Shown here piece after piece: positions 1,160 through 20,778 of a stretch of DNA of 51,277 nt. The DNA lies in the sequence record NC_049817.1; one strand, given 5' to 3'. The position numbers were made by a program, and so were the translations under genes. This DNA is from Escherichia phage tonnikala. The notes under the pieces are model-generated. The model worked only from the letters and a program-made list of their open reading frames with translations, had not been told where the DNA came from and did no database searches. Every line of letters starts with the position of its first letter. Position 1 is the stretch's first letter.

Positions 1160-3157
1160 ATGATTCCAAATATCGAAAAACAAATATCAGCGTTAGGCGA
1201 GGCAGTAATAAAAAGCATCCAAGAGCGATTCACGGTTGGCAATATAGTGCCTTATCCTTATCAGTGCGTTGCGTATGCCGAGATCGCAAAGCGCATGAAA
1301 AACTATGAGCATCCTTTCTTTGTTAAGGCTTCTGTGTCGGCTGGCAAAACATTGATGTTTGCGATGGTTGCTGCGCAATGCCGCAAAATGGGATTGAAAA
1401 TGATGGTCCTTGCTCGCCAGGCTGAAATTGTTGATCAGGATTCGGAAGAGATCAGCAATCTTGGCGTGCCAAACTCAATCTATTGCGCCGGACTGAAAAC
1501 AAAAAGCGCATACTTTCCGATCGTAGTCGGTTCTGAGGGCACTGTAGTAAACGGATTGTTTAAGTCGTTAGGTGATTATGTTCCGCACGTTATCGGTATT
1601 GATGAATGTCACCAGGTGGATTGGGAGGATCTCGCCGACGCGATAGAAAATAATGAATCTTACCAGCAGATGACCACTAAGAAGGATTTGCCTGTACTGA
1701 TTGGAGAAGAACAGCAATTTGATTCCAATGGCGATCCAATGTTCGGAACAGGGCGCACACAGTACACCGTAATAATCATGGAAATGATGCGCAGGTGTCG
1801 CGAGGCATACGGGCACGAATTGCGAATATTCGGTATGACTGGATCTGAGTTTCGCGGCGTGGTTCCAATACTGGTCGAAGATAAGAACAAAAAGGGATTC
1901 TGGCGTGAGCAGGTGACTAACATAGACACAAACTACTTAATCAAATTTGGTTCGGTAGTGCCAACAAATTTCGGCGACGTAGGCGACCTGGGGTATGACC
2001 TTTCAGAGTTCGAAGCCAGTAGCGAGGATGGCGTTTCAGACTTTGACGCTAAAACATTGCGCAAGATGGAAGAAAAAATCCATCAAGACGCAACAATGAC
2101 ACAGAAAATCATGGCTAAAGTCCATGAGATATGCAAAGACAGGAACGGAGTTTTAGTTACATGCGCAGGGGAAAGACATTGCAAGGAGGCCGCCGCCGCA
2201 CTGCCGCAAGGCGTTGAATACAGGATCATAACTGGCAAAACTGGAGATAATCAGCGTAAAGAGTGGCTGAGGGAGGCATACGAGGGGAAAGTAAAATACA
2301 TCTTCCAGGTACAGGCGCTTACCACTGGCGTTAACGTTCCGTTTTGGGATACTTCGGTAATACTGAGAAAGATAGGATCTCTAACATTGCTTATCCAGCT
2401 TTTGGGGCGCGGTATGCGACTGCTTAAGCAATGGCACATTGAGCAGGGATTCAAGAAAAAAGACCATCTTGTATTGGATTTTGCCGGTACTATGGATGAG
2501 TTAGGGGATTTGTATTTCGATCCAATCCTTGAGCAAGCGCAATTCCAAAAGAGATTTACAAACGGGAAAGAGCCTAAGACTTGTCCGATATGTGGAACGC
2601 TAAACAGCTTTTACGCTCGCCGATGTATGCACGTAGACGATAACGGGAAGAGATGCGAGCATTTTTGGACTTACAGAATTTGCGAGGACCAGGTAGATCC
2701 GAGAACGAAAAAGATAATCAAGCGCGGTTGCGGAACAAAAAACGACGTAGTGGCGAGAGTTTGCCGTTGTTGCGATATTTCTCTTGTCGATCCTAACGAG
2801 AAGTTAAGCGGTAAGCACTACACCAAAAACGATTGGTGCAACGTTAAATCTTTCCGCGTTGATATGACGAAAAACCAGAAAGGAATTGTTTTTTGCTATG
2901 AGCTTGAGGCCAACGGCGACACGTTCAAGGCATACGAAAGATTTTTCCCTGAGTCAGAAAGCAACATTTGCCGGACGATATGGAGAAAAATAGCATTGCA
3001 GCACATACCGGATCGCAAGATTGCTGGTATGGTGGCGAGCTATAGAAATGCGCGTAAAATAATGTCATACGCTCATCACATCATGCCTCCTGTACGCGTA
3101 ACGCATCGCAAAAACGGCAAAGGTGAGGATAACATTGCAAAACGGGAGTTTGTTTAA
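1160..3157 (+). CDS. SF2 DNA helicase with C-terminal zinc-finger region
   Basis: 665 aa; Walker A SAGKT, motif II GIDECHQ, C-terminal CPICG...C...C cysteine clusters. Confidence 0.8.
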   Translation: MIPNIEKQISALGEAVIKSIQERFTVGNIVPYPYQCVAYAEIAKRMKNYEHPFFVKASVSAGKTLMFAMVAAQCRKMGLKMMVLARQAEIVDQDSEEISNLGVPNSIYCAGLKTKSAYFPIVVGSEGTVVNGLFKSLGDYVPHVIGIDECHQVDWEDLADAIENNESYQQMTTKKDLPVLIGEEQQFDSNGDPMFGTGRTQYTVIIMEMMRRCREAYGHELRIFGMTGSEFRGVVPILVEDKNKKGFWREQVTNIDTNYLIKFGSVVPTNFGDVGDLGYDLSEFEASSEDGVSDFDAKTLRKMEEKIHQDATMTQKIMAKVHEICKDRNGVLVTCAGERHCKEAAAALPQGVEYRIITGKTGDNQRKEWLREAYEGKVKYIFQVQALTTGVNVPFWDTSVILRKIGSLTLLIQLLGRGMRLLKQWHIEQGFKKKDHLVLDFAGTMDELGDLYFDPILEQAQFQKRFTNGKEPKTCPICGTLNSFYARRCMHVDDNGKRCEHFWTYRICEDQVDPRTKKIIKRGCGTKNDVVARVCRCCDISLVDPNEKLSGKHYTKNDWCNVKSFRVDMTKNQKGIVFCYELEANGDTFKAYERFFPESESNICRTIWRKIALQHIPDRKIAGMVASYRNARKIMSYAHHIMPPVRVTHRKNGKGEDNIAKREFV

Positions 3158-3576
3158 TGGCTATAACTGATAAAGGCGATTATCTTGAGTTTTACGAAAG
3201 GGATCCAACCGACACGAGAAGGGAAGTTAATCACCAGATAGATAGTTTTCAGTGGTTGACTTATGCTCATCCTTATTTGCTGGCGTGGCATACGGTAAAC
3301 GAGAATGAGAAGTCTAAAGTAACGGCGATGATTGATCAGCAGTCCGGCTTGGTTAAGGGAGTAAGCGATTTCATCATCCTGATTGGTTTAAACGGAAAAT
3401 ACCCCTTTGCAGCGATTGAGATCAAACGAGTGAATAAATCAGGCAAGGGGAAAGCATCACCAGTCAGCGATGAACAAAAGGCTTTTTTGCGTCGCGTTCG
3501 CAGCTTAGGAGGATTCGCTGCGGTAGCCTACGGATTCAATCAGTTTAAGTTGGCTATTGAATACATGCTTAAATAG
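3157..3576 (+). CDS. VRR-NUC domain nuclease (PD-(D/E)XK fold)
   Basis: 139 aa; D...EIK core (DFIILIG...AAIEIKR); start overlaps helicase stop (TAATG). Confidence 0.6.
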   Translation: MAITDKGDYLEFYERDPTDTRREVNHQIDSFQWLTYAHPYLLAWHTVNENEKSKVTAMIDQQSGLVKGVSDFIILIGLNGKYPFAAIEIKRVNKSGKGKASPVSDEQKAFLRRVRSLGGFAAVAYGFNQFKLAIEYMLK

Positions 3577-3592: not shown

Positions 3593-3656
3593 TGGCGCGA
3601 TGGATTGCGCCATAATTCAATAACACGAGATGGCTTTTAATAGCGGAGAAATGAAA

Positions 3657-4382
3657 ATGGCTAAAGATATTTTAGATAAAGACACCCATGACGCATTCGT
3701 TAGCTTTGAGCAGTTGGAGAGAGAAACGTTTATAGGGAATGCCCTTGCAACTGGAGGCCATTACCAGGCAGTAAAGCCAAATCAATATTATAAGGTAAGC
3801 GGAAACCGATACGCTGGAAGCACTACGCCGGACGTTGTGCGCGATATGTGGAGTACGCCTCAAGAGATCGTGGAGTGGATGGAATCAGAATTTGGTGAAT
3901 ACGATCTCGACGCGGCAGCAAGCCAGGAAAACGCAGTTTGCGAGAAGTTCTATAGCAAGGAGACAAACTGCTTAAAGCGGTGGTGGGGTAGCAACAAGCA
4001 CGTATGGCTTAACCCGCCGTACAGCAACCCAACTCCATTTATCAAGAAAGCAATTGAGCAAATGGAGCACAACAACCAAATTGATGTTTTGTTGCCAGCA
4101 GACAACTCTACAGCATGGTTTTATGAGGCGCAAAAAAACGCGGCTGAAATCATCTGGATCACTGGCGAGGTTTACGAAGAGGGTGGAGTAGAATACTCCC
4201 GCACCGGAAGAATCGCCTTTGTGTCTGGATTGACTGGCGAGCCTGTGCAGGGCAACAATAAGGGAAGCGTGATTTTTGTCATGCGCAAACTTAAAGAAGG
4301 CGAGGAGCAGAAAACGCGATACGTTAAGATCAGCGATATTTGCCCTTCTGTAACCGAACGCCGCGCTCGCAAACGGAGCTAA
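3657..4382 (+). CDS. DNA N6-adenine methyltransferase (phage Dam family)
   Basis: Catalytic NPPY motif (HVWLNPPYSN); RBS GGAG 8 nt before ATG at 3657 (track ORF starts at 3630). Confidence 0.8.
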   Translation: MAKDILDKDTHDAFVSFEQLERETFIGNALATGGHYQAVKPNQYYKVSGNRYAGSTTPDVVRDMWSTPQEIVEWMESEFGEYDLDAAASQENAVCEKFYSKETNCLKRWWGSNKHVWLNPPYSNPTPFIKKAIEQMEHNNQIDVLLPADNSTAWFYEAQKNAAEIIWITGEVYEEGGVEYSRTGRIAFVSGLTGEPVQGNNKGSVIFVMRKLKEGEEQKTRYVKISDICPSVTERRARKRS

Positions 4383-8242: not shown

Positions 8243-8624
8243 ATCTTTTCCTTAGAGCTTTTATTTGTTGTCTATTAGCTTTTGCCTGGAACAATTCATC
8301 ATCGCCCATCTCCCCTATTCTCGCCATATCCCTGATCCAGTCGTTGCGCATACCATCCAGGCTATACAATTCGAATCCGAAAGGCCGCTTTGACGATCCT
8401 TTGGACCAGTATTTTCCGCAGACCCCATCTATATAACCAGCCGTCATCATTCTTGCGCAAAATTCCTTAGATGCAAGGCTGGCGAACATTCGCGGCGTAA
8501 GTCCGGCGGCCCGCGCGAGCCGCTCGCATTCTCTATGCTGATAGATAAATTTGGCTATGTGCTGCCTGTTAAACCAGTCGTATGACTCACACCATTTATA
8601 CAGATCAAGCAAAAACATAATCAT
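8229..8624 (-). CDS. hypothetical protein
   Basis: 131 aa; start overlaps upstream gene stop (ATGA). Confidence 0.5.
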   Translation of the reverse strand: MIMFLLDLYKWCESYDWFNRQHIAKFIYQHRECERLARAAGLTPRMFASLASKEFCARMMTAGYIDGVCGKYWSKGSSKRPFGFELYSLDGMRNDWIRDMARIGEMGDDELFQAKANRQQIKALRKRYGLE

Positions 8625-10201
8625 CCCAGCAGTATTGGATTGACAAAAATAACACCATTAATCACGCAAACATAATTTCTTTCTTCCAGCATTGGCAGCA
8701 AGTGCCCCTCTATCCTCTTCATTACGCCAGCCTGACCAACGAAAGGTTTTACCTTTCTCGCTGATTCGTACAGGGCGCGGATATTCAGAATCCCTTTATT
8801 AGCCTTGCCGTGTCTAGTGATCAATTCAATCAATTTACCCATTTCAGCATCATCACCAGCATAACCAGAAGCATTGGCGGCGCTAATGTATGTTTTGCTC
8901 AATTCCTGAAACATGATCAGCGCCTCTTGCATTGTTTCCACGTCGATCTCTTTCAACTTCTGCGGGTATCCGGCAGGATTAAACCAGTTGCGGATAACAT
9001 GCAGGACGGAAGCAAGCCTGATCACCTGTTTATCCATTTTACCCAGCGCACCGCGTAACATTGTATGAGAATACTTTCCGCCGTCTGCAAGATGCGGTTC
9101 CATATCCTGGCGAGCAATGTTGAGCACTCGCATAGCTGAACGGCTTATTTTCAGCGATATATTTGATTCGCTCATGATGTTATGCACCAATTGATAATAT
9201 TGGGCCTTCAATTCAGGATCCACCGCCTCATAGGTAGAATCACCATTTTCATCAATGAATGAGCGACGGCCTAAGAATGATTCCTCACGGACCAACAAAA
9301 AGCGCTCACTCACACCGATACCGCGCGATCCAGCGTCCATGATTCCGCTTATCGTTTCATCCTGGGCTATAACGCTCATACATCCAAGCGCGCGAAAACT
9401 CATGTTATTGTCAGCATTAGCACGGGCAATTGATACGTGACCATTATCCCACGCCTTAAGCACTAGCTCACTGTTAGTCTTCCTTTCGCTATTGGCATAG
9501 GTCAAGCCTAACAGACTGTTAATACTTGTTGCTTCGTCAGATATTACGGCAAAGTTACCTTGCTTGTTGTTGATTTTTGCCAAGCCTTCTGGAGTTGTAT
9601 CTGAAACAGGGAAAGTTATATCACACATCTTTTCCAGCTTCTCCTCCAGATCCTCTTTTTCCTGGTATAGAGATTCCATATCAGCGCCTGATCTTTCGCT
9701 TTTCATCTCCTTTGCAAGACCTGCCAACTTTGCCTGTATTTTCTTTCTTTCCTTGCGGCGTTGCTCGTTGATCTTCTCAACTTCCGCAATCATCGGAGCA
9801 ATAGCCATACTGTTGATCGCAGATTTACCAGTTGACGGCGGCTGGCTTGTAACGACGTAAAGCGCAGTCGGCTGATCGGTCCCGTGATAGTCAACCGTAA
9901 AGCGTCCAAGCATGGCGGCAGAAATGCAGCCGATAAAGTGCATGTAAGCCGATGATTCAGGGAATTGAACGGATCGCGCAATACTGCGTGATAACTTTCC
10001 GACAACATCAATATCATTACCAAGAGAAATTACGGGGTAGCGATCGTGACCGCTATTTACATCCTTCACGTCGCCCCAAAAGCTGGACGACTGGCGATAG
10101 CCGTTAGCCTGAATTGATACGCGAACTGGTGAAAGGTTCTGGCTTTCAGCCATAGCGATTATTTGCTGTGGAGTTAATTTGTTCGTTTCTAATGAAAACA
10201 T
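8621..10201 (-). CDS. P-loop NTPase, putative replication-associated protein (DUF3987-like)
   Basis: 526 aa; Walker A-like SQPPSTGKS and Walker B-like VISDEATS; AAGGAG RBS 10 nt upstream of ATG. Confidence 0.45.
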   Translation of the reverse strand: MFSLETNKLTPQQIIAMAESQNLSPVRVSIQANGYRQSSSFWGDVKDVNSGHDRYPVISLGNDIDVVGKLSRSIARSVQFPESSAYMHFIGCISAAMLGRFTVDYHGTDQPTALYVVTSQPPSTGKSAINSMAIAPMIAEVEKINEQRRKERKKIQAKLAGLAKEMKSERSGADMESLYQEKEDLEEKLEKMCDITFPVSDTTPEGLAKINNKQGNFAVISDEATSINSLLGLTYANSERKTNSELVLKAWDNGHVSIARANADNNMSFRALGCMSVIAQDETISGIMDAGSRGIGVSERFLLVREESFLGRRSFIDENGDSTYEAVDPELKAQYYQLVHNIMSESNISLKISRSAMRVLNIARQDMEPHLADGGKYSHTMLRGALGKMDKQVIRLASVLHVIRNWFNPAGYPQKLKEIDVETMQEALIMFQELSKTYISAANASGYAGDDAEMGKLIELITRHGKANKGILNIRALYESARKVKPFVGQAGVMKRIEGHLLPMLEERNYVCVINGVIFVNPILLG

Positions 10202-10927: not shown

Positions 10928-10946
10928 CTTTTAACAAAAAGTGCTA
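10928..10946 (-). promoter_or_regulatory. conserved intergenic motif copy (minus orientation)
   Basis: Reverse complement TAGCACTTTTTGTTAAAAG; overlaps stop of the methyltransferase-like gene. Confidence 0.4.
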
Positions 10947-11654
10947 TTTTGAGTTTGACTCAAAGATGGCGCGAGCAAAGCCGCGCGGAGTGAGGGAGCG
11001 GATCATCTTTGTGCGCGATGACTTACCGCCAGTTTTGGCCCAGCCTGGATTATCTTTGTCTTCCTCTTTCGGCAGGATTAAAGCGCGCGGAGGAATAACA
11101 AAGCCGTTGCCAGTCCAGAGGCACGTTTTCTTAAAATAGCGATCCCGTGCCGGAATAATATCAGGGAAGTCGGGATGTTTATCATCTTCCGGCAGATAGC
11201 CAGCGTAATCGCACGGATGGAACGTATAATCAGGCTTACGCCATAACGTTGACAACTTGCCAACCGGATTTTCGATCATGTAAGGAACACCGAAATAATC
11301 AGCTATATCAGCCGCGATTCTGCAAGTGTCGGCGGCCTCATCCTGGAATGATGGATTCTCAAGGCGTTTTTTGGCCCAATGGCGAGATCCGCTATTTGCA
11401 AGGTCGGTGCATGGTGGGAAGGCCATAATAAAATCAGGATTGCCCCACTCATTATTGATTGCCTTAACATAAAAAGCATCATCAATCCAGACGTTAACGT
11501 ATTCGATATTCTCATGCTGTATGCGCACTGACTGGTAATCACCGTGATCGCCACCGTCAGCATTAAAGCAAATGCACTTATAGCCATTATCAGCCCAATC
11601 TTTAACGGCTTTACCAGATCCATCAAATAGGGAGAATATTAAACCTTTATACAT
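10944..11654 (-). CDS. DNA C5-cytosine methyltransferase-like protein (short, atypical)
   Basis: Motif I-like SLFDGSG, catalytic Pro-Cys (AFPPCTD), ENV-like MIENPVG; start set at MYKG with GAGG RBS. Confidence 0.55.
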   Translation of the reverse strand: MYKGLIFSLFDGSGKAVKDWADNGYKCICFNADGGDHGDYQSVRIQHENIEYVNVWIDDAFYVKAINNEWGNPDFIMAFPPCTDLANSGSRHWAKKRLENPSFQDEAADTCRIAADIADYFGVPYMIENPVGKLSTLWRKPDYTFHPCDYAGYLPEDDKHPDFPDIIPARDRYFKKTCLWTGNGFVIPPRALILPKEEDKDNPGWAKTGGKSSRTKMIRSLTPRGFARAIFESNSK

Positions 11655-11664
11655 CGTCATTACC

Positions 11665-11889
11665 TCAAAACGGAAAACAGCGCGCACAACCAGGATCGAA
11701 ATCGCATCCACAATCATTAACAATCATAGTGGGATCTGCAAATATTGCGCTTGATTCAAGATCCATATCCATATCACCTAAAGCCTCATCAAGAGTCTTA
11801 ATTTTATATGCCACTTCAAGCGCCGCCTCTTTATTTAGTCCGGCATCTTCTGCCATTTGAAGGCGCTCAAAAAAACCGTCTTGACTCAT
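11665..11889 (-). CDS. hypothetical acidic protein
   Basis: 74 aa; acidic, Cys-rich C-terminus. Confidence 0.45.
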   Translation of the reverse strand: MSQDGFFERLQMAEDAGLNKEAALEVAYKIKTLDEALGDMDMDLESSAIFADPTMIVNDCGCDFDPGCARCFPF

Positions 11890-20187: not shown

Positions 20188-20778
20188 ATGAAACGAGACA
20201 TTATCATCCTTAATGGGCCTCCAGGTTGCGGGAAGGACACTATTGCAGCTTACCTAACAGGCCATCGTTACCCAGCGGTCAAGGCGTCATTCAAACAGCC
20301 GATGTTCGATATTGCGTTTTCCATGCTGGGCGTGTACCGATACGATGAATTTATGGACCTGTACAACGACCGAGAACAAAAAGAAAAGCCTCAAGTTATT
20401 TTGGGCGGCAAGTCACCTCGACAATTCATGATCTGGATTAGCGAGGATGTAATGAAGCCAGTTTTTGGAGATCACTATTTCGGGCGTCGAATGGTTGAAG
20501 AGATTCACGAGATGTACCGAGATTTGGCGGTTGTGATCAGTGATGGCGGATTCCCCGAAGAAATCAAGCCGCTCGTTAAGGCTGGGCATGAGTTGCATAT
20601 TTGCCGATTGCATCGCGACGGATTCACGTTTGCTGGCGATTCGAGAGACTATATTGACCTGAGCGGTTATCACTATCGAATCCATCACTATGATTTCCAC
20701 TTGCAGGACGGCAAGCCTGAACTGGCTGTAAACGAGATCGTCAATGCAGTCAAATGGAAGCACACACAGATTAAATAG
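20188..20778 (+). CDS. P-loop nucleotide kinase, deoxynucleoside monophosphate kinase-like
   Basis: Walker A ILNGPPGCGKDT at N-terminus; overall layout resembles phage dNMP kinases. Confidence 0.55.
   Translation: MKRDIIILNGPPGCGKDTIAAYLTGHRYPAVKASFKQPMFDIAFSMLGVYRYDEFMDLYNDREQKEKPQVILGGKSPRQFMIWISEDVMKPVFGDHYFGRRMVEEIHEMYRDLAVVISDGGFPEEIKPLVKAGHELHICRLHRDGFTFAGDSRDYIDLSGYHYRIHHYDFHLQDGKPELAVNEIVNAVKWKHTQIK

What the first reader, a model, noticed from the sequence alone, without database searches (positions are those of the whole stretch)
10944..11654. Short C5-cytosine methyltransferase-like protein with atypical motifs, alongside a Dam-family enzyme
The 237-aa protein has an FxGxG-like motif I (SLFDGSG), a catalytic Pro-Cys (FPPCTD rather than GFPCQ) and an ENV-like motif (MIENPVG), but a very short C-terminal region where the target-recognition domain normally lies. 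Together with the N6-adenine methyltransferase at 3657..4382, the phage may double-modify its DNA against restriction. The non-canonical motifs leave open a different base-modifying chemistry.
Basis: partly seen in the sequence, partly recalled or inferred. Interest (0 to 1): 0.55.

Follow-up and report, generated by a model that had tools for sequence, protein, structure and literature searches.

The report
Known short phage Dcm cytosine methyltransferase
This gene encodes a very compact phage DNA cytosine-C5 methyltransferase that is already annotated in hundreds of T1-like phages, and a near-identical version has been shown experimentally to make 5-methylcytosine and to set off the bacterial retron Ec86 (Retron-Eco1) defence, so the finding is correct but not new.

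Summary
The ORF is real: minus strand, 10944..11654, 236 aa, with a GAGG ribosome-binding site.

The window is a Warwickvirus (Drexlerviridae), 99% identical to BASEL phage FritzSarasin, where the gene is annotated "Dcm-like C5 cytosine methyltransferase".

The protein is 89% identical, without gaps, to the Dcm of phage KarlJaspers. The Dcm of K42, a KarlJaspers strain, raises 5mC in retron msDNA and triggers retron Ec86. Its mutated residues C82, E128, K175 and K176 sit at identical positions here.

Incidental evidence: a nanopore-only assembly of a sister phage is miscalled at 40/40 CCWGG sites, so virion DNA is modified there.

The "different chemistry" idea is not supported: LC-MS found 5mC, the cofactor-side Asn is conserved, and no cmoA or ligase genes are present.

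Still open: direct mapping of the target site, and how a roughly 28-38 aa variable region without a canonical motif X reads five bases.

Verdict: already known, low interest.

The parts
10944..11654 (-). dcm coding sequence: 236-aa short phage C5-cytosine DNA methyltransferase (stop codon at 10944-10946, ATG at 11652-11654)
   Evidence: ORF and translation; phrog_757 E=1e-84; 89% identical to KarlJaspers Dcm bas06_0055; AF2 pLDDT 90.8 with a C5-MTase fold
11663..11666 (-). Shine-Dalgarno GAGG, 8 nt upstream of the ATG
   Evidence: Read from the sequence; conserved in KarlJaspers. [quoted passage not shown] That the change destroys the SD is my inference.
11613..11633 (-). Motif I (SLFDGSG, residues 8-14): SAM-binding loop after strand beta1
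   Evidence: Aligned to M.HhaI F18-G-L-G-G by hhalign; in the 225-sequence family D11 is present in 187, S13 is S/T in 209, and G14 in 198
11403..11420 (-). Motif IV (FPPCTD, residues 79-84) with the catalytic nucleophile Cys82 (11409-11411)
   Evidence: C82 aligns with M.HhaI C81; Cys in 222/225 members; C82A is part of the inactive quadruple mutant of the K42 ortholog
11259..11279 (-). Motif VI (MIENPVG, residues 126-132): Glu128 corresponds to the ENV glutamate
   Evidence: E128 aligns with M.HhaI E119; E in 221/225, N129 in 214, P130 in 222; E128A is in the inactive K42 mutant
11115..11147 (-). Motif VIII equivalent (RDRYFKKTCLW, residues 170-180); K175/K176 take the place of the Q-x-R-x-R arginines
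   Evidence: hhalign places Y173-F-K175-K176-T177 on M.HhaI Q161-K-R163-E-R165; Y173 in 222/225, K175 in 218, T177 in 218; K175A/K176A are in the inactive K42 mutant
11031..11114 (-). Short variable segment (residues 181-208, TGNGFVIPPRALILPKEEDKDNPGWAKT): the only candidate target-recognition element
   Evidence: Least conserved and lowest-pLDDT part of the C-terminal half; median length 26 aa in the family; at least three loop types across the family. Its role in DNA recognition is inferred.
10962..11030 (-). Conserved GGKS...TK block plus motif IX (R219-S-L-T-P-R-G-F-A-R228)
   Evidence: Aligned to M.HhaI R272-K-L-H-P-R-E-C-A-R281 and to E. coli Dcm RRLTPRECARL; R219 in 219/225, P223 in 215
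10953..10955 (-). Asn234, a highly conserved residue two positions from the C-terminus; possible remnant of the motif X Asn
   Evidence: N in 187/225 members; the other frequent states are Y, gap, H and E. Equivalence to M.HhaI N304 was not verified because no model coordinates were available.
3657..4382 (+). Companion phage Dam-type N6-adenine methyltransferase (an alternative in-frame ATG lies at 3630)
   Evidence: Pfam PF05869 E=1.1e-61; annotated 'Dam-like N6-adenine methyltransferase' in FritzSarasin; 67-71% identical to the T1 and TLS Dam

Best explanation
The ORF encodes an active, SAM-dependent DNA cytosine-C5 methyltransferase. It belongs to the compact (about 230 aa) 'phage Dcm' family of T1-like and other enterobacterial phages. 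Mechanism inferred from the family: Cys82 attacks C6 of a flipped-out cytosine, Glu128 protonates N3, the K175/K176 region and motif IX hold the substrate, and the methyl group of SAM is transferred to C5. The most likely target is the inner cytosine of CCWGG, the same site as host Dcm. The enzyme reaches that site with an unrelated and much smaller recognition element. During infection it would methylate replicating phage DNA. Together with the phage Dam (GATC), this probably shields the genome from CCWGG- and CCNGG-type restriction, especially in hosts that lack dcm or cannot methylate a fast-replicating phage completely. Its demonstrated side effect is that it also methylates the CCTGG in the stem-loop of retron Ec86 (Retron-Eco1) msDNA. 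That activates the retron's effector filament and aborts the infection, so the gene is both a counter-defence and an Achilles' heel. Shown for the 89%-identical ortholog: 5mC formation, dependence on the catalytic residues, and retron triggering. Inferred: the same for this protein, CCWGG as the direct specificity, and the anti-restriction benefit.
Against: The sequence specificity of this enzyme family has never been mapped directly. The preprint assumed CCWGG by analogy with host Dcm and supported it only by mutating the msDNA. The 2019SD1 signal cannot separate phage Dcm from the Dcm of the Shigella host. CCWGG enrichment is also a property of E. coli-like sequence composition and is seen, more weakly, in dcm-less T1 (83 vs 52 expected). 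The protein has no detectable similarity to E. coli Dcm outside the catalytic motifs (BLASTP E=1.8, hhalign E=0.039), so the same specificity is not expected from homology. The variable segment is only about 28 aa and a canonical motif X (G-N-S/A-V helix) is missing. The BASEL paper found no simple relation between these methyltransferase genes and resistance to the restriction systems it tested. Pfam PF00145 and NCBIfam give no hit even at E<=10.
Confidence: 0.8

Rival explanations
1. It is an active C5-cytosine methyltransferase, but its true specificity is not CCWGG. It could be relaxed or shorter (for example CCNGG or CWG-like), or structure-dependent (hairpin or single-stranded DNA such as msDNA). 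The CCWGG modification seen in virions would then come from host Dcm.
For: The variable region is very small (median 26 aa) and there is no similarity to the Dcm/EcoRII recognition domain. CCWGG was assumed, not mapped. MG1655 is generally regarded as dcm+ (my own knowledge), yet the preprint reports low 5mC in msDNA without the phage enzyme; this could mean the phage enzyme has substrate properties the host enzyme lacks. At least three different loop types occur in the family.
Against: Mutating either C of the msDNA CCTGG abolished triggering. In 2019SD1 virion DNA the only motif with excess nanopore miscalls is CCWGG; no second motif emerges after masking it. A frequent relaxed site would have produced many more errors. 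CCSGG could not be assessed because these genomes have almost none.
Confidence: 0.12
2. It transfers a group other than methyl (for example carboxymethyl from Cx-SAM, as CmoX does) or starts a hypermodification pathway.
Confidence: 0.02
3. It is not primarily a DNA-protecting enzyme. It could be an RNA/tRNA m5C methyltransferase (Dnmt2-like), or a catalytically unimportant DNA-binding or decoy protein.
Against: DNA methyltransferases score higher than Dnmt2. The ortholog methylates the DNA part of msDNA, and the catalytic-residue mutant loses the phenotype. Near-universal conservation of Cys82, Glu128 and K175 argues for catalysis under selection. The gene is retained at a syntenic position in 42 of 45 T1-like loci.
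Confidence: 0.03

Closest known systems
Phage Dcm of Drexlerviridae phage K42 / KarlJaspers (Bas06), the trigger of retron Ec86 (Retron-Eco1) (Wang et al., bioRxiv 10.1101/2023.08.16.553469; Cell Rep 2024;43:114857)
   Same: Same 711-bp gene length and the same position next to the DUF3987 helicase. 89% identity without gaps to the KarlJaspers protein, with residues 121-236 almost identical. C82, E128, K175 and K176 are at the same positions. The GAGG ribosome-binding site is conserved.
   Different: 25 substitutions, mostly in the N-terminal half. A different genus (Warwickvirus rather than Hanrivervirus). Nothing has been tested on this exact protein.
Escherichia coli Dcm / M.EcoRII (CCWGG, inner C; Pfam PF00145)
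   Same: Same chemistry and, most likely, the same target sequence. Shares the Pro-Cys motif and motif IX (RxLTPRxxAR).
   Different: Host Dcm is 472 aa, twice the size, and overlaps vsr. There is no significant overall similarity (BLASTP E=1.8; hhalign matches only motif IV, E=0.039). The window protein does not match PF00145 at all. 'Dcm-like' describes function, not close homology.
DNMT3A/DNMT3B catalytic domain (eukaryotic de novo CpG methyltransferases)
   Different: Only 14-17% identity. DNMT3 catalytic domains are about 285 aa, retain a motif X helix, recognise CpG, and work as DNMT3L-containing oligomers with chromatin-reading domains.
M.HhaI (prototype bacterial C5-methyltransferase)
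   Different: 327 aa against 236 aa. About 100 aa between motifs VIII and IX against about 38 aa here. The Q-x-R-x-R of motif VIII is Y-F-K-K-T here. The G-N-S-V motif X helix has no counterpart beyond a terminal Asn.
CmoX, the phage DNA cytosine C5-carboxymethyltransferase (PDB 8yf3; PMC12783734)
   Different: CmoX has Arg in place of the motif X Asn and sits next to phage cmoA and ligase genes. Here the corresponding candidate is a conserved Asn and no such genes are present.

Membership tests
Short phage 'Dcm' C5-methyltransferase family (PHROG 757; ortholog group of K42/KarlJaspers Dcm) | Significant full-length match to the family profile | tested here: met
   phrog_757 E=1e-84, residues 2-235; 1921 homologs; 1201 clusters at 50% identity, most 210-260 aa
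Short phage 'Dcm' C5-methyltransferase family (PHROG 757; ortholog group of K42/KarlJaspers Dcm) | Orthology to the experimentally tested enzyme: high identity, the same length, conserved synteny, the same catalytic residues | tested here: met
   89% identity with 0 gaps to KarlJaspers bas06_0055, both 236 aa; the order helicase, two small ORFs, dcm is the same; C82/E128/K175/K176 are present
Short phage 'Dcm' C5-methyltransferase family (PHROG 757; ortholog group of K42/KarlJaspers Dcm) | Produces 5-methylcytosine in DNA and triggers retron Ec86 | not testable with these tools
   Shown for the K42 enzyme only. Indirect support: CCWGG-specific nanopore miscalls in virion DNA of the Hanrivervirus 2019SD1.
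C5-cytosine DNA methyltransferase superfamily (M.HhaI / DNMT type) | Class I Rossmann-like methyltransferase fold with C5-MTase topology | tested here: met
C5-cytosine DNA methyltransferase superfamily (M.HhaI / DNMT type) | Motif I (F-x-G-x-G SAM loop), motif IV (Pro-Cys nucleophile), motif VI (E-N-V glutamate) | tested here: met
   F10-D-G-S-G14, P81-C82 and E128-N-P align with the M.HhaI motifs and are conserved in the family
C5-cytosine DNA methyltransferase superfamily (M.HhaI / DNMT type) | Motif VIII (Q-x-R-x-R) | tested here: inconclusive
   The aligned segment is Y173-F-K175-K176-T177. A basic residue matches R163, but R165 is replaced by Thr. K175/K176 were treated as substrate-binding residues in the K42 study.
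C5-cytosine DNA methyltransferase superfamily (M.HhaI / DNMT type) | Motif IX (R-x-L-T-x-R-E-x-A-R) | tested here: met
   R219-S-L-T-P-R-G-F-A-R228 aligns with M.HhaI 272-281 and with E. coli Dcm RRLTPRECAR
C5-cytosine DNA methyltransferase superfamily (M.HhaI / DNMT type) | Motif X (G-N-S/A-V helix closing the SAM pocket) and a sizeable target-recognition domain between motifs VIII and IX | tested here: inconclusive
   No canonical motif X. The chain ends 2 residues after the conserved N234, which may be its remnant; this could not be checked without coordinates. The variable region is about 28-38 aa against about 100 aa in M.HhaI.
Pfam PF00145 DNA_methylase / NCBIfam Dcm models | Score above the curated threshold of the family HMM | tested here: not met
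   No Pfam-A or NCBIfam family reported even at E<=10. It is therefore a structural and mechanistic relative, not a member of these sequence-defined families.
E. coli Dcm / M.EcoRII subfamily | Sequence similarity across the target-recognition domain; about 470 aa; vsr partner gene | tested here: not met
   BLASTP E=1.8 and hhalign E=0.039 limited to motif IV; 236 aa against 472 aa; no vsr-like gene in the curated annotation of the 99%-identical FritzSarasin genome
CmoX C5-carboxymethyltransferases | Arg replacing the motif X Asn (contacts the Cx-SAM carboxylate); neighbouring phage cmoA and amide-ligase genes | tested here: not met
   Position 234 is Asn in 187/225 members; the other frequent states are Y, gap, H and E. 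No cmoA or ligase in the genome annotation or among the mid-sized ORFs. Criteria are from PMC12783734.
Phage Dam (Pfam PF05869), the companion gene at 3657..4382 | Score above the Pfam gathering threshold | tested here: met
   207.9 bits against a cut-off of 28.1, E=1.1e-61

The most novel reading that the evidence does not exclude
This roughly 236-aa family may be a genuinely minimal sequence-specific C5-methyltransferase. It would read a five-base palindrome (CCWGG) with a variable loop of about 28 aa and no canonical motif X helix, perhaps as a DNMT3-like dimer. That would be a DNA-recognition solution not represented among solved bacterial C5-methyltransferases and unrelated to host Dcm. 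Alternatively, its real specificity or substrate preference (hairpin or single-stranded msDNA) may differ from the CCWGG that has so far only been assumed. Neither reading has been tested directly by anyone in the literature I could search.
Probability: 0.25. Interest if true: 0.45.

Novelty: already known. Interest (0 to 1): 0.2.

Why it matters
As a discovery it matters little. The gene is annotated as a cytosine methyltransferase in dozens of GenBank and RefSeq records. Its close ortholog is the published trigger of retron Ec86 (Retron-Eco1), a textbook-style case of a phage counter-defence enzyme being sensed by a second-line defence.

The practical value is for interpretation. A phage carrying this gene is predicted to be sensitive to Retron-Eco1 hosts such as E. 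coli BL21. It is also predicted to carry 5mC at CCWGG, which affects cloning, restriction mapping and older nanopore assemblies.

The residual scientific interest is structural: how such a small enzyme achieves its specificity.

Tried and rejected
1. Pfam-A and NCBIfam scans gave nothing even at E<=10. PDB sequence searches with the single protein and with the family profile gave only marginal DNMT3B hits, E 0.2-0.6.

2. hhalign in global mode against the single M.HhaI sequence produced a meaningless alignment. Local mode aligned motifs I, IV and VI only. A usable alignment needed a canonical profile built from M.HhaI plus 8 phage enzymes.

3. Model coordinates are not exposed, so I could not check whether N234 occupies the position of M.HhaI N304.

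4. Hypothesis that carrying dcm explains the near-absence of CCSGG sites: rejected. It looked good with four genomes. However, in 42 syntenic dcm+ loci about half have normal CCSGG, so it is a lineage or host effect.

5. Hypothesis that L057 (Shigella phage 2019SD1) is a natural dcm pseudogene whose genome has purged CCWGG: rejected. The record is a nanopore-only Albacore/Canu assembly. The frameshifts and the missing CCWGG sites are basecalling artefacts. I re-used the artefact as evidence for CCWGG modification.

6. Literature searches for a direct specificity determination (REBASE-type, bisulfite, EM-seq or nanopore) of this family found none.

7. The peer-reviewed Cell Reports version is not held in the library, so details come from the preprint.

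8. A Druantia preprint mentioning Drexlerviridae and 5mC was irrelevant to this gene.

Full report
OBSERVATION. The ORF reported at 10944..11654 is real, but it lies on the minus strand. It has 237 codons including the stop, so the protein is 236 aa. The plus-strand reading is full of stops. A GAGG Shine-Dalgarno sits 8 nt upstream of the ATG. A longer TTG-start version (259 aa) would overlap the upstream ORF. It is not supported by the family consensus, which starts just before strand beta1, nor by the 711-bp annotation in phage KarlJaspers. The second gene mentioned, at 3657..4382 on the + strand, is a phage Dam: Pfam PF05869, E=1.1e-61.

WHAT THE WINDOW IS. The region is 99% identical to Escherichia phage FritzSarasin (BASEL Bas04; Drexlerviridae, Tempevirinae, Warwickvirus) and 95-99% identical to about 50 other T1-like coliphages. 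In those records the gene is already annotated "Dcm-like C5 cytosine methyltransferase", "DNA-cytosine methylase", "dcm" or "DNA methyltransferase". Homologs occur in 1497 phage records by tblastn: Escherichia, Klebsiella, Salmonella and Shigella siphoviruses, rV5-like myoviruses, and even Arthrobacter phages. In 45 T1-like loci anchored on the neighbouring DUF3987 helicase, 42 carry the gene at the same syntenic position. Phage T1 has dam only, RTP has neither gene, and TLS has both, with the gene named dcm.

MOTIF MAPPING. I verified a recalled M.HhaI sequence against PDB 10mh; it is identical over all 327 residues. I then built a canonical profile from M.HhaI plus eight phage C5-methyltransferases. 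Profile-profile alignment with 225 family members gave E=1.9e-4 over 196 columns. It maps:
- motif I onto motif I;
- C82 onto C81;
- E128 onto E119;
- Y173-F-K175-K176-T177 onto Q161-K-R163-E-R165 (motif VIII);
- R219-S-L-T-P-R-G-F-A-R228 onto R272-K-L-H-P-R-E-C-A-R281 (motif IX).

Across the 225 sequences Cys82 is present in 222, Glu128 in 221, Pro130 in 222, Tyr173 in 222, Lys175 in 218 and Arg219 in 219. First, the stretch between motifs VIII and IX is about 38 aa against about 100 aa in M.HhaI, and its variable core (residues 181-208) has a median length of 26 aa. Second, there is no canonical motif X: the chain ends two residues after a conserved Asn (N234, 187/225).

WHAT IS ALREADY KNOWN EXPERIMENTALLY. 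A full-text search returned the preprint [quoted passage not shown] (bioRxiv 10.1101/2023.08.16.553469). It was published as Wang et al., Cell Rep 2024;43:114857, according to the reference list of PMC12640716; that version is not held. The authors selected mutants of the Drexlerviridae phage K42, a KarlJaspers strain, that escape retron Ec86 (Retron-Eco1). [quoted passage not shown] Expressing Dcm was toxic only in cells carrying Ec86. A C82A/E128A/K175A/K176A mutant was inert. LC-MS showed high 5mC in msDNA only with wild-type Dcm. Changing the CCTGG in the msDNA stem-loop abolished defence. Of 35 Ec86-sensitive phages, 34 encode Dcm.

I fetched KarlJaspers (MZ501090). Its 711-bp "Dcm-like C5 cytosine methyltransferase" sits in the same synteny and is 89% identical to the window protein (211/236, no gaps). 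Residues 121-236 are almost invariant. The four mutated residues sit at identical positions in the window protein. In KarlJaspers, position -9 on the coding strand is a G of the GAGG Shine-Dalgarno. Because the gene is on the minus strand, the reported C-to-A change is most simply a G-to-T change that destroys the ribosome-binding site; this is my inference. The window gene is therefore an ortholog of a characterised enzyme.

SPECIFICITY: WHAT IS AND IS NOT SHOWN. The preprint assumed CCWGG by analogy with host Dcm and supported it only through the msDNA mutants. I found no direct mapping in the searchable literature. The protein has no significant similarity to E. coli Dcm (472 aa) beyond motifs IV and IX (BLASTP E=1.8; hhalign E=0.039). 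"Dcm-like" is therefore a functional label.

Two lines of computation bear on the question. The first is composition. In the window CCWGG is enriched (130 sites against 53 expected from dinucleotide shuffles, z about 10), and so is GATC (310 against 189). Other short palindromes are purged: GAATTC 3 against 22, GATATC 0 against 12, CTGCAG 0 against 12, GGWCC 16 against 44. CCWGG is enriched 1.45-3.8-fold in all syntenic dcm+ loci, against 0.83 in the RTP locus and 1.6 in T1. This fits sites that are protected rather than avoided. It is weak evidence, because E. coli-like sequence is CCWGG-rich anyway.

The second line came by accident. One T1-like locus (L057) had zero CCWGG sites and an apparently frameshifted dcm. 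It is Shigella phage 2019SD1 (NC_049820, Hanrivervirus). That genome was assembled from nanopore R9.4 reads only, with Albacore 2.3.1 and Canu (PMC8590004). Aligned to a close relative (L052, the 49,043-bp PGN590-sized contig), 41 of 41 CCWGG sites are altered in stereotyped, strand-symmetric ways: CCTGG to CACGG, CCCGG, CC-GG or C--GG, and CCAGG to CCGTG, CCGGG or CC-GG. The error rate is 0.40 inside the motif and 0.065 outside. In an unbiased 5-mer scan CCAGG/CCTGG is altered in 40/40 cases (p=2e-25). The only other strong signals are homopolymers. After masking CCWGG nothing else stands out, and GATC is below background at 9/78. Default ONT models of that period are documented to miscall Dcm-methylated CCAGG/CCTGG (Wick et al. 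2019, PMC6591954). So virion DNA of a sister phage carries a modification at essentially every CCWGG site and at no other frequent motif. This cannot separate the phage enzyme from the Dcm of the Shigella host.

THE 'DIFFERENT CHEMISTRY' IDEA. The natural carboxymethyltransferase CmoX is the second-best structural hit, so I checked its defining features (PMC12783734). These are an Arg replacing the motif X Asn (M.HhaI N304), and neighbouring phage cmoA and amide-ligase genes. Here the only candidate residue is Asn in 187/225 members, and Arg/Lys is not among its five commonest states. The curated FritzSarasin annotation and my Pfam and PHROG scans of the mid-sized ORFs show no cmoA, ligase, TET/JBP or glycosyltransferase. 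Those ORFs are an exonuclease, a PNK phosphatase, a dNMP-kinase-like protein, helicases and structural proteins. Combined with the LC-MS identification of 5mC for the ortholog, a non-methyl chemistry is very unlikely.

MECHANISM AND ROLE. Shown for the ortholog: SAM-type C5 methylation that depends on the Cys82/Glu128/Lys175/Lys176 set, methylation of Ec86 msDNA, and activation of the retron. Inferred for this protein: the same activities; CCWGG (inner C) as the direct target; methylation of the phage's own replicating DNA; and, together with Dam, protection against CCWGG- and CCNGG-type restriction. The anti-restriction benefit is not demonstrated. The BASEL study noted that FritzSarasin is unusually resistant to restriction systems but found no simple link to methyltransferase genes (PMC8594841). 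The strong avoidance of EcoRI and EcoRV sites that I see in the window is a simpler explanation for part of that phenotype.

COMPARISON, NOVELTY, VERDICT. The protein is a member of the short phage Dcm family (PHROG 757) and an ortholog of the K42/KarlJaspers enzyme. It belongs structurally and mechanistically to the C5-methyltransferase superfamily. It is not a member of the sequence-defined Pfam PF00145 or the Dcm/EcoRII subfamily, and it fails the CmoX criteria. The finding is already known, both as annotation and as experiment, so overall interest is low (0.2). What remains open is structural: how a 236-aa enzyme with a loop of about 28 aa and no canonical motif X reads CCWGG, and whether that specificity, never mapped directly, is exactly right.

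Noticed in passing
whole window; also L011 (TLS), L013-L057, L058-L137: CCSGG (CCCGG/CCGGG) is almost absent from this genome (3 sites against about 47 expected) and from TLS (0 against 37). It is normal in T1 and RTP. Across 42 dcm+ T1-like loci the purge is bimodal: observed/expected is either <=0.22 or 0.8-1.5. It tracks lineage and GC content, not presence of dcm. A CCNGG- or CCSGG-specific restriction pressure in some host ranges is a plausible cause, with CCWGG sites spared because they are methylated.
   Followed up: partly
whole window; L012 (RTP); L094, L095, L103, L107, L108: GATC is enriched in dam+ phages: 310 against 189 expected in the window and 281 against 163 in TLS. It is strongly depleted in RTP, which has no dam (72 against 170). 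It is nearly eliminated (observed/expected 0.04-0.09) in a group of roughly 43-kb contigs (GC about 0.51) that carry the short Dcm but have no dam within 10 kb.
   Followed up: partly
whole window: Strong avoidance of several 6-bp palindromes: GAATTC 3 against 22 expected, GATATC 0 against 12, CTGCAG 0 against 12, and GGWCC 16 against 44. EcoRI and EcoRV were among the systems tested in BASEL, so site avoidance may explain part of the high restriction resistance reported there for the 99%-identical FritzSarasin.
   Followed up: partly
L057 = NC_049820.1 / MT360681.1 (Shigella phage 2019SD1), e.g. L057:11882-12661: This RefSeq genome is a nanopore-only assembly with systematic errors at every CCWGG site and many indels. 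Its dcm and probably other genes look like pseudogenes, and about 24 spurious CCSGG sites appear. Anyone using this record for comparative genomics will be misled.
   Followed up: yes
window 10944..11723 versus MZ501069 37955..38728: FritzSarasin (and protein cluster P0001, 257 aa) annotate the gene from an upstream start, giving a 774-bp CDS that overlaps the preceding ORF. KarlJaspers uses the 711-bp start. The ATG at 11654, with its GAGG ribosome-binding site and the family consensus N-terminus, is better supported.
   Followed up: yes
residues 181-208 of the protein (window 11031-11114); loci L058-L137: The variable loop between motif VIII and the conserved GGKS block comes in at least three types across the family: ...DNPGWAK(T/L), ...GYS(D/A)QH(K/N)(K/R)L and ...MPDEWEDSKQHAKL. 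If this loop reads the DNA, family members may differ in specificity.
   Followed up: no
window 20188..20778 (+): A 196-aa P-loop protein matches phrog_139 'deoxynucleoside monophosphate kinase' (E=4e-51). It is annotated only as 'putative P-loop NTPase' in FritzSarasin, while TLS annotates a dmk gene. It was not examined further, and no link to DNA modification was found.
   Followed up: no
L013 / L058 (IMGVR_UViG_3300045988_032316, 51,944 bp): An IMG/VR contig encodes a helicase 100% identical and a Dcm 99.6-100% identical to those of the window. The window probably derives from this contig or from a near-identical phage.
   Followed up: no
window 3157..3576 (+) and 8621..10201 (-): A VRR-NUC nuclease-domain protein (PF08774) lies immediately upstream of dam. 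A DUF3987 helicase-like protein lies about 750 nt downstream of dcm. This dcm-helicase synteny is conserved across T1-like phages and made a convenient anchor for comparative work.
   Followed up: partly
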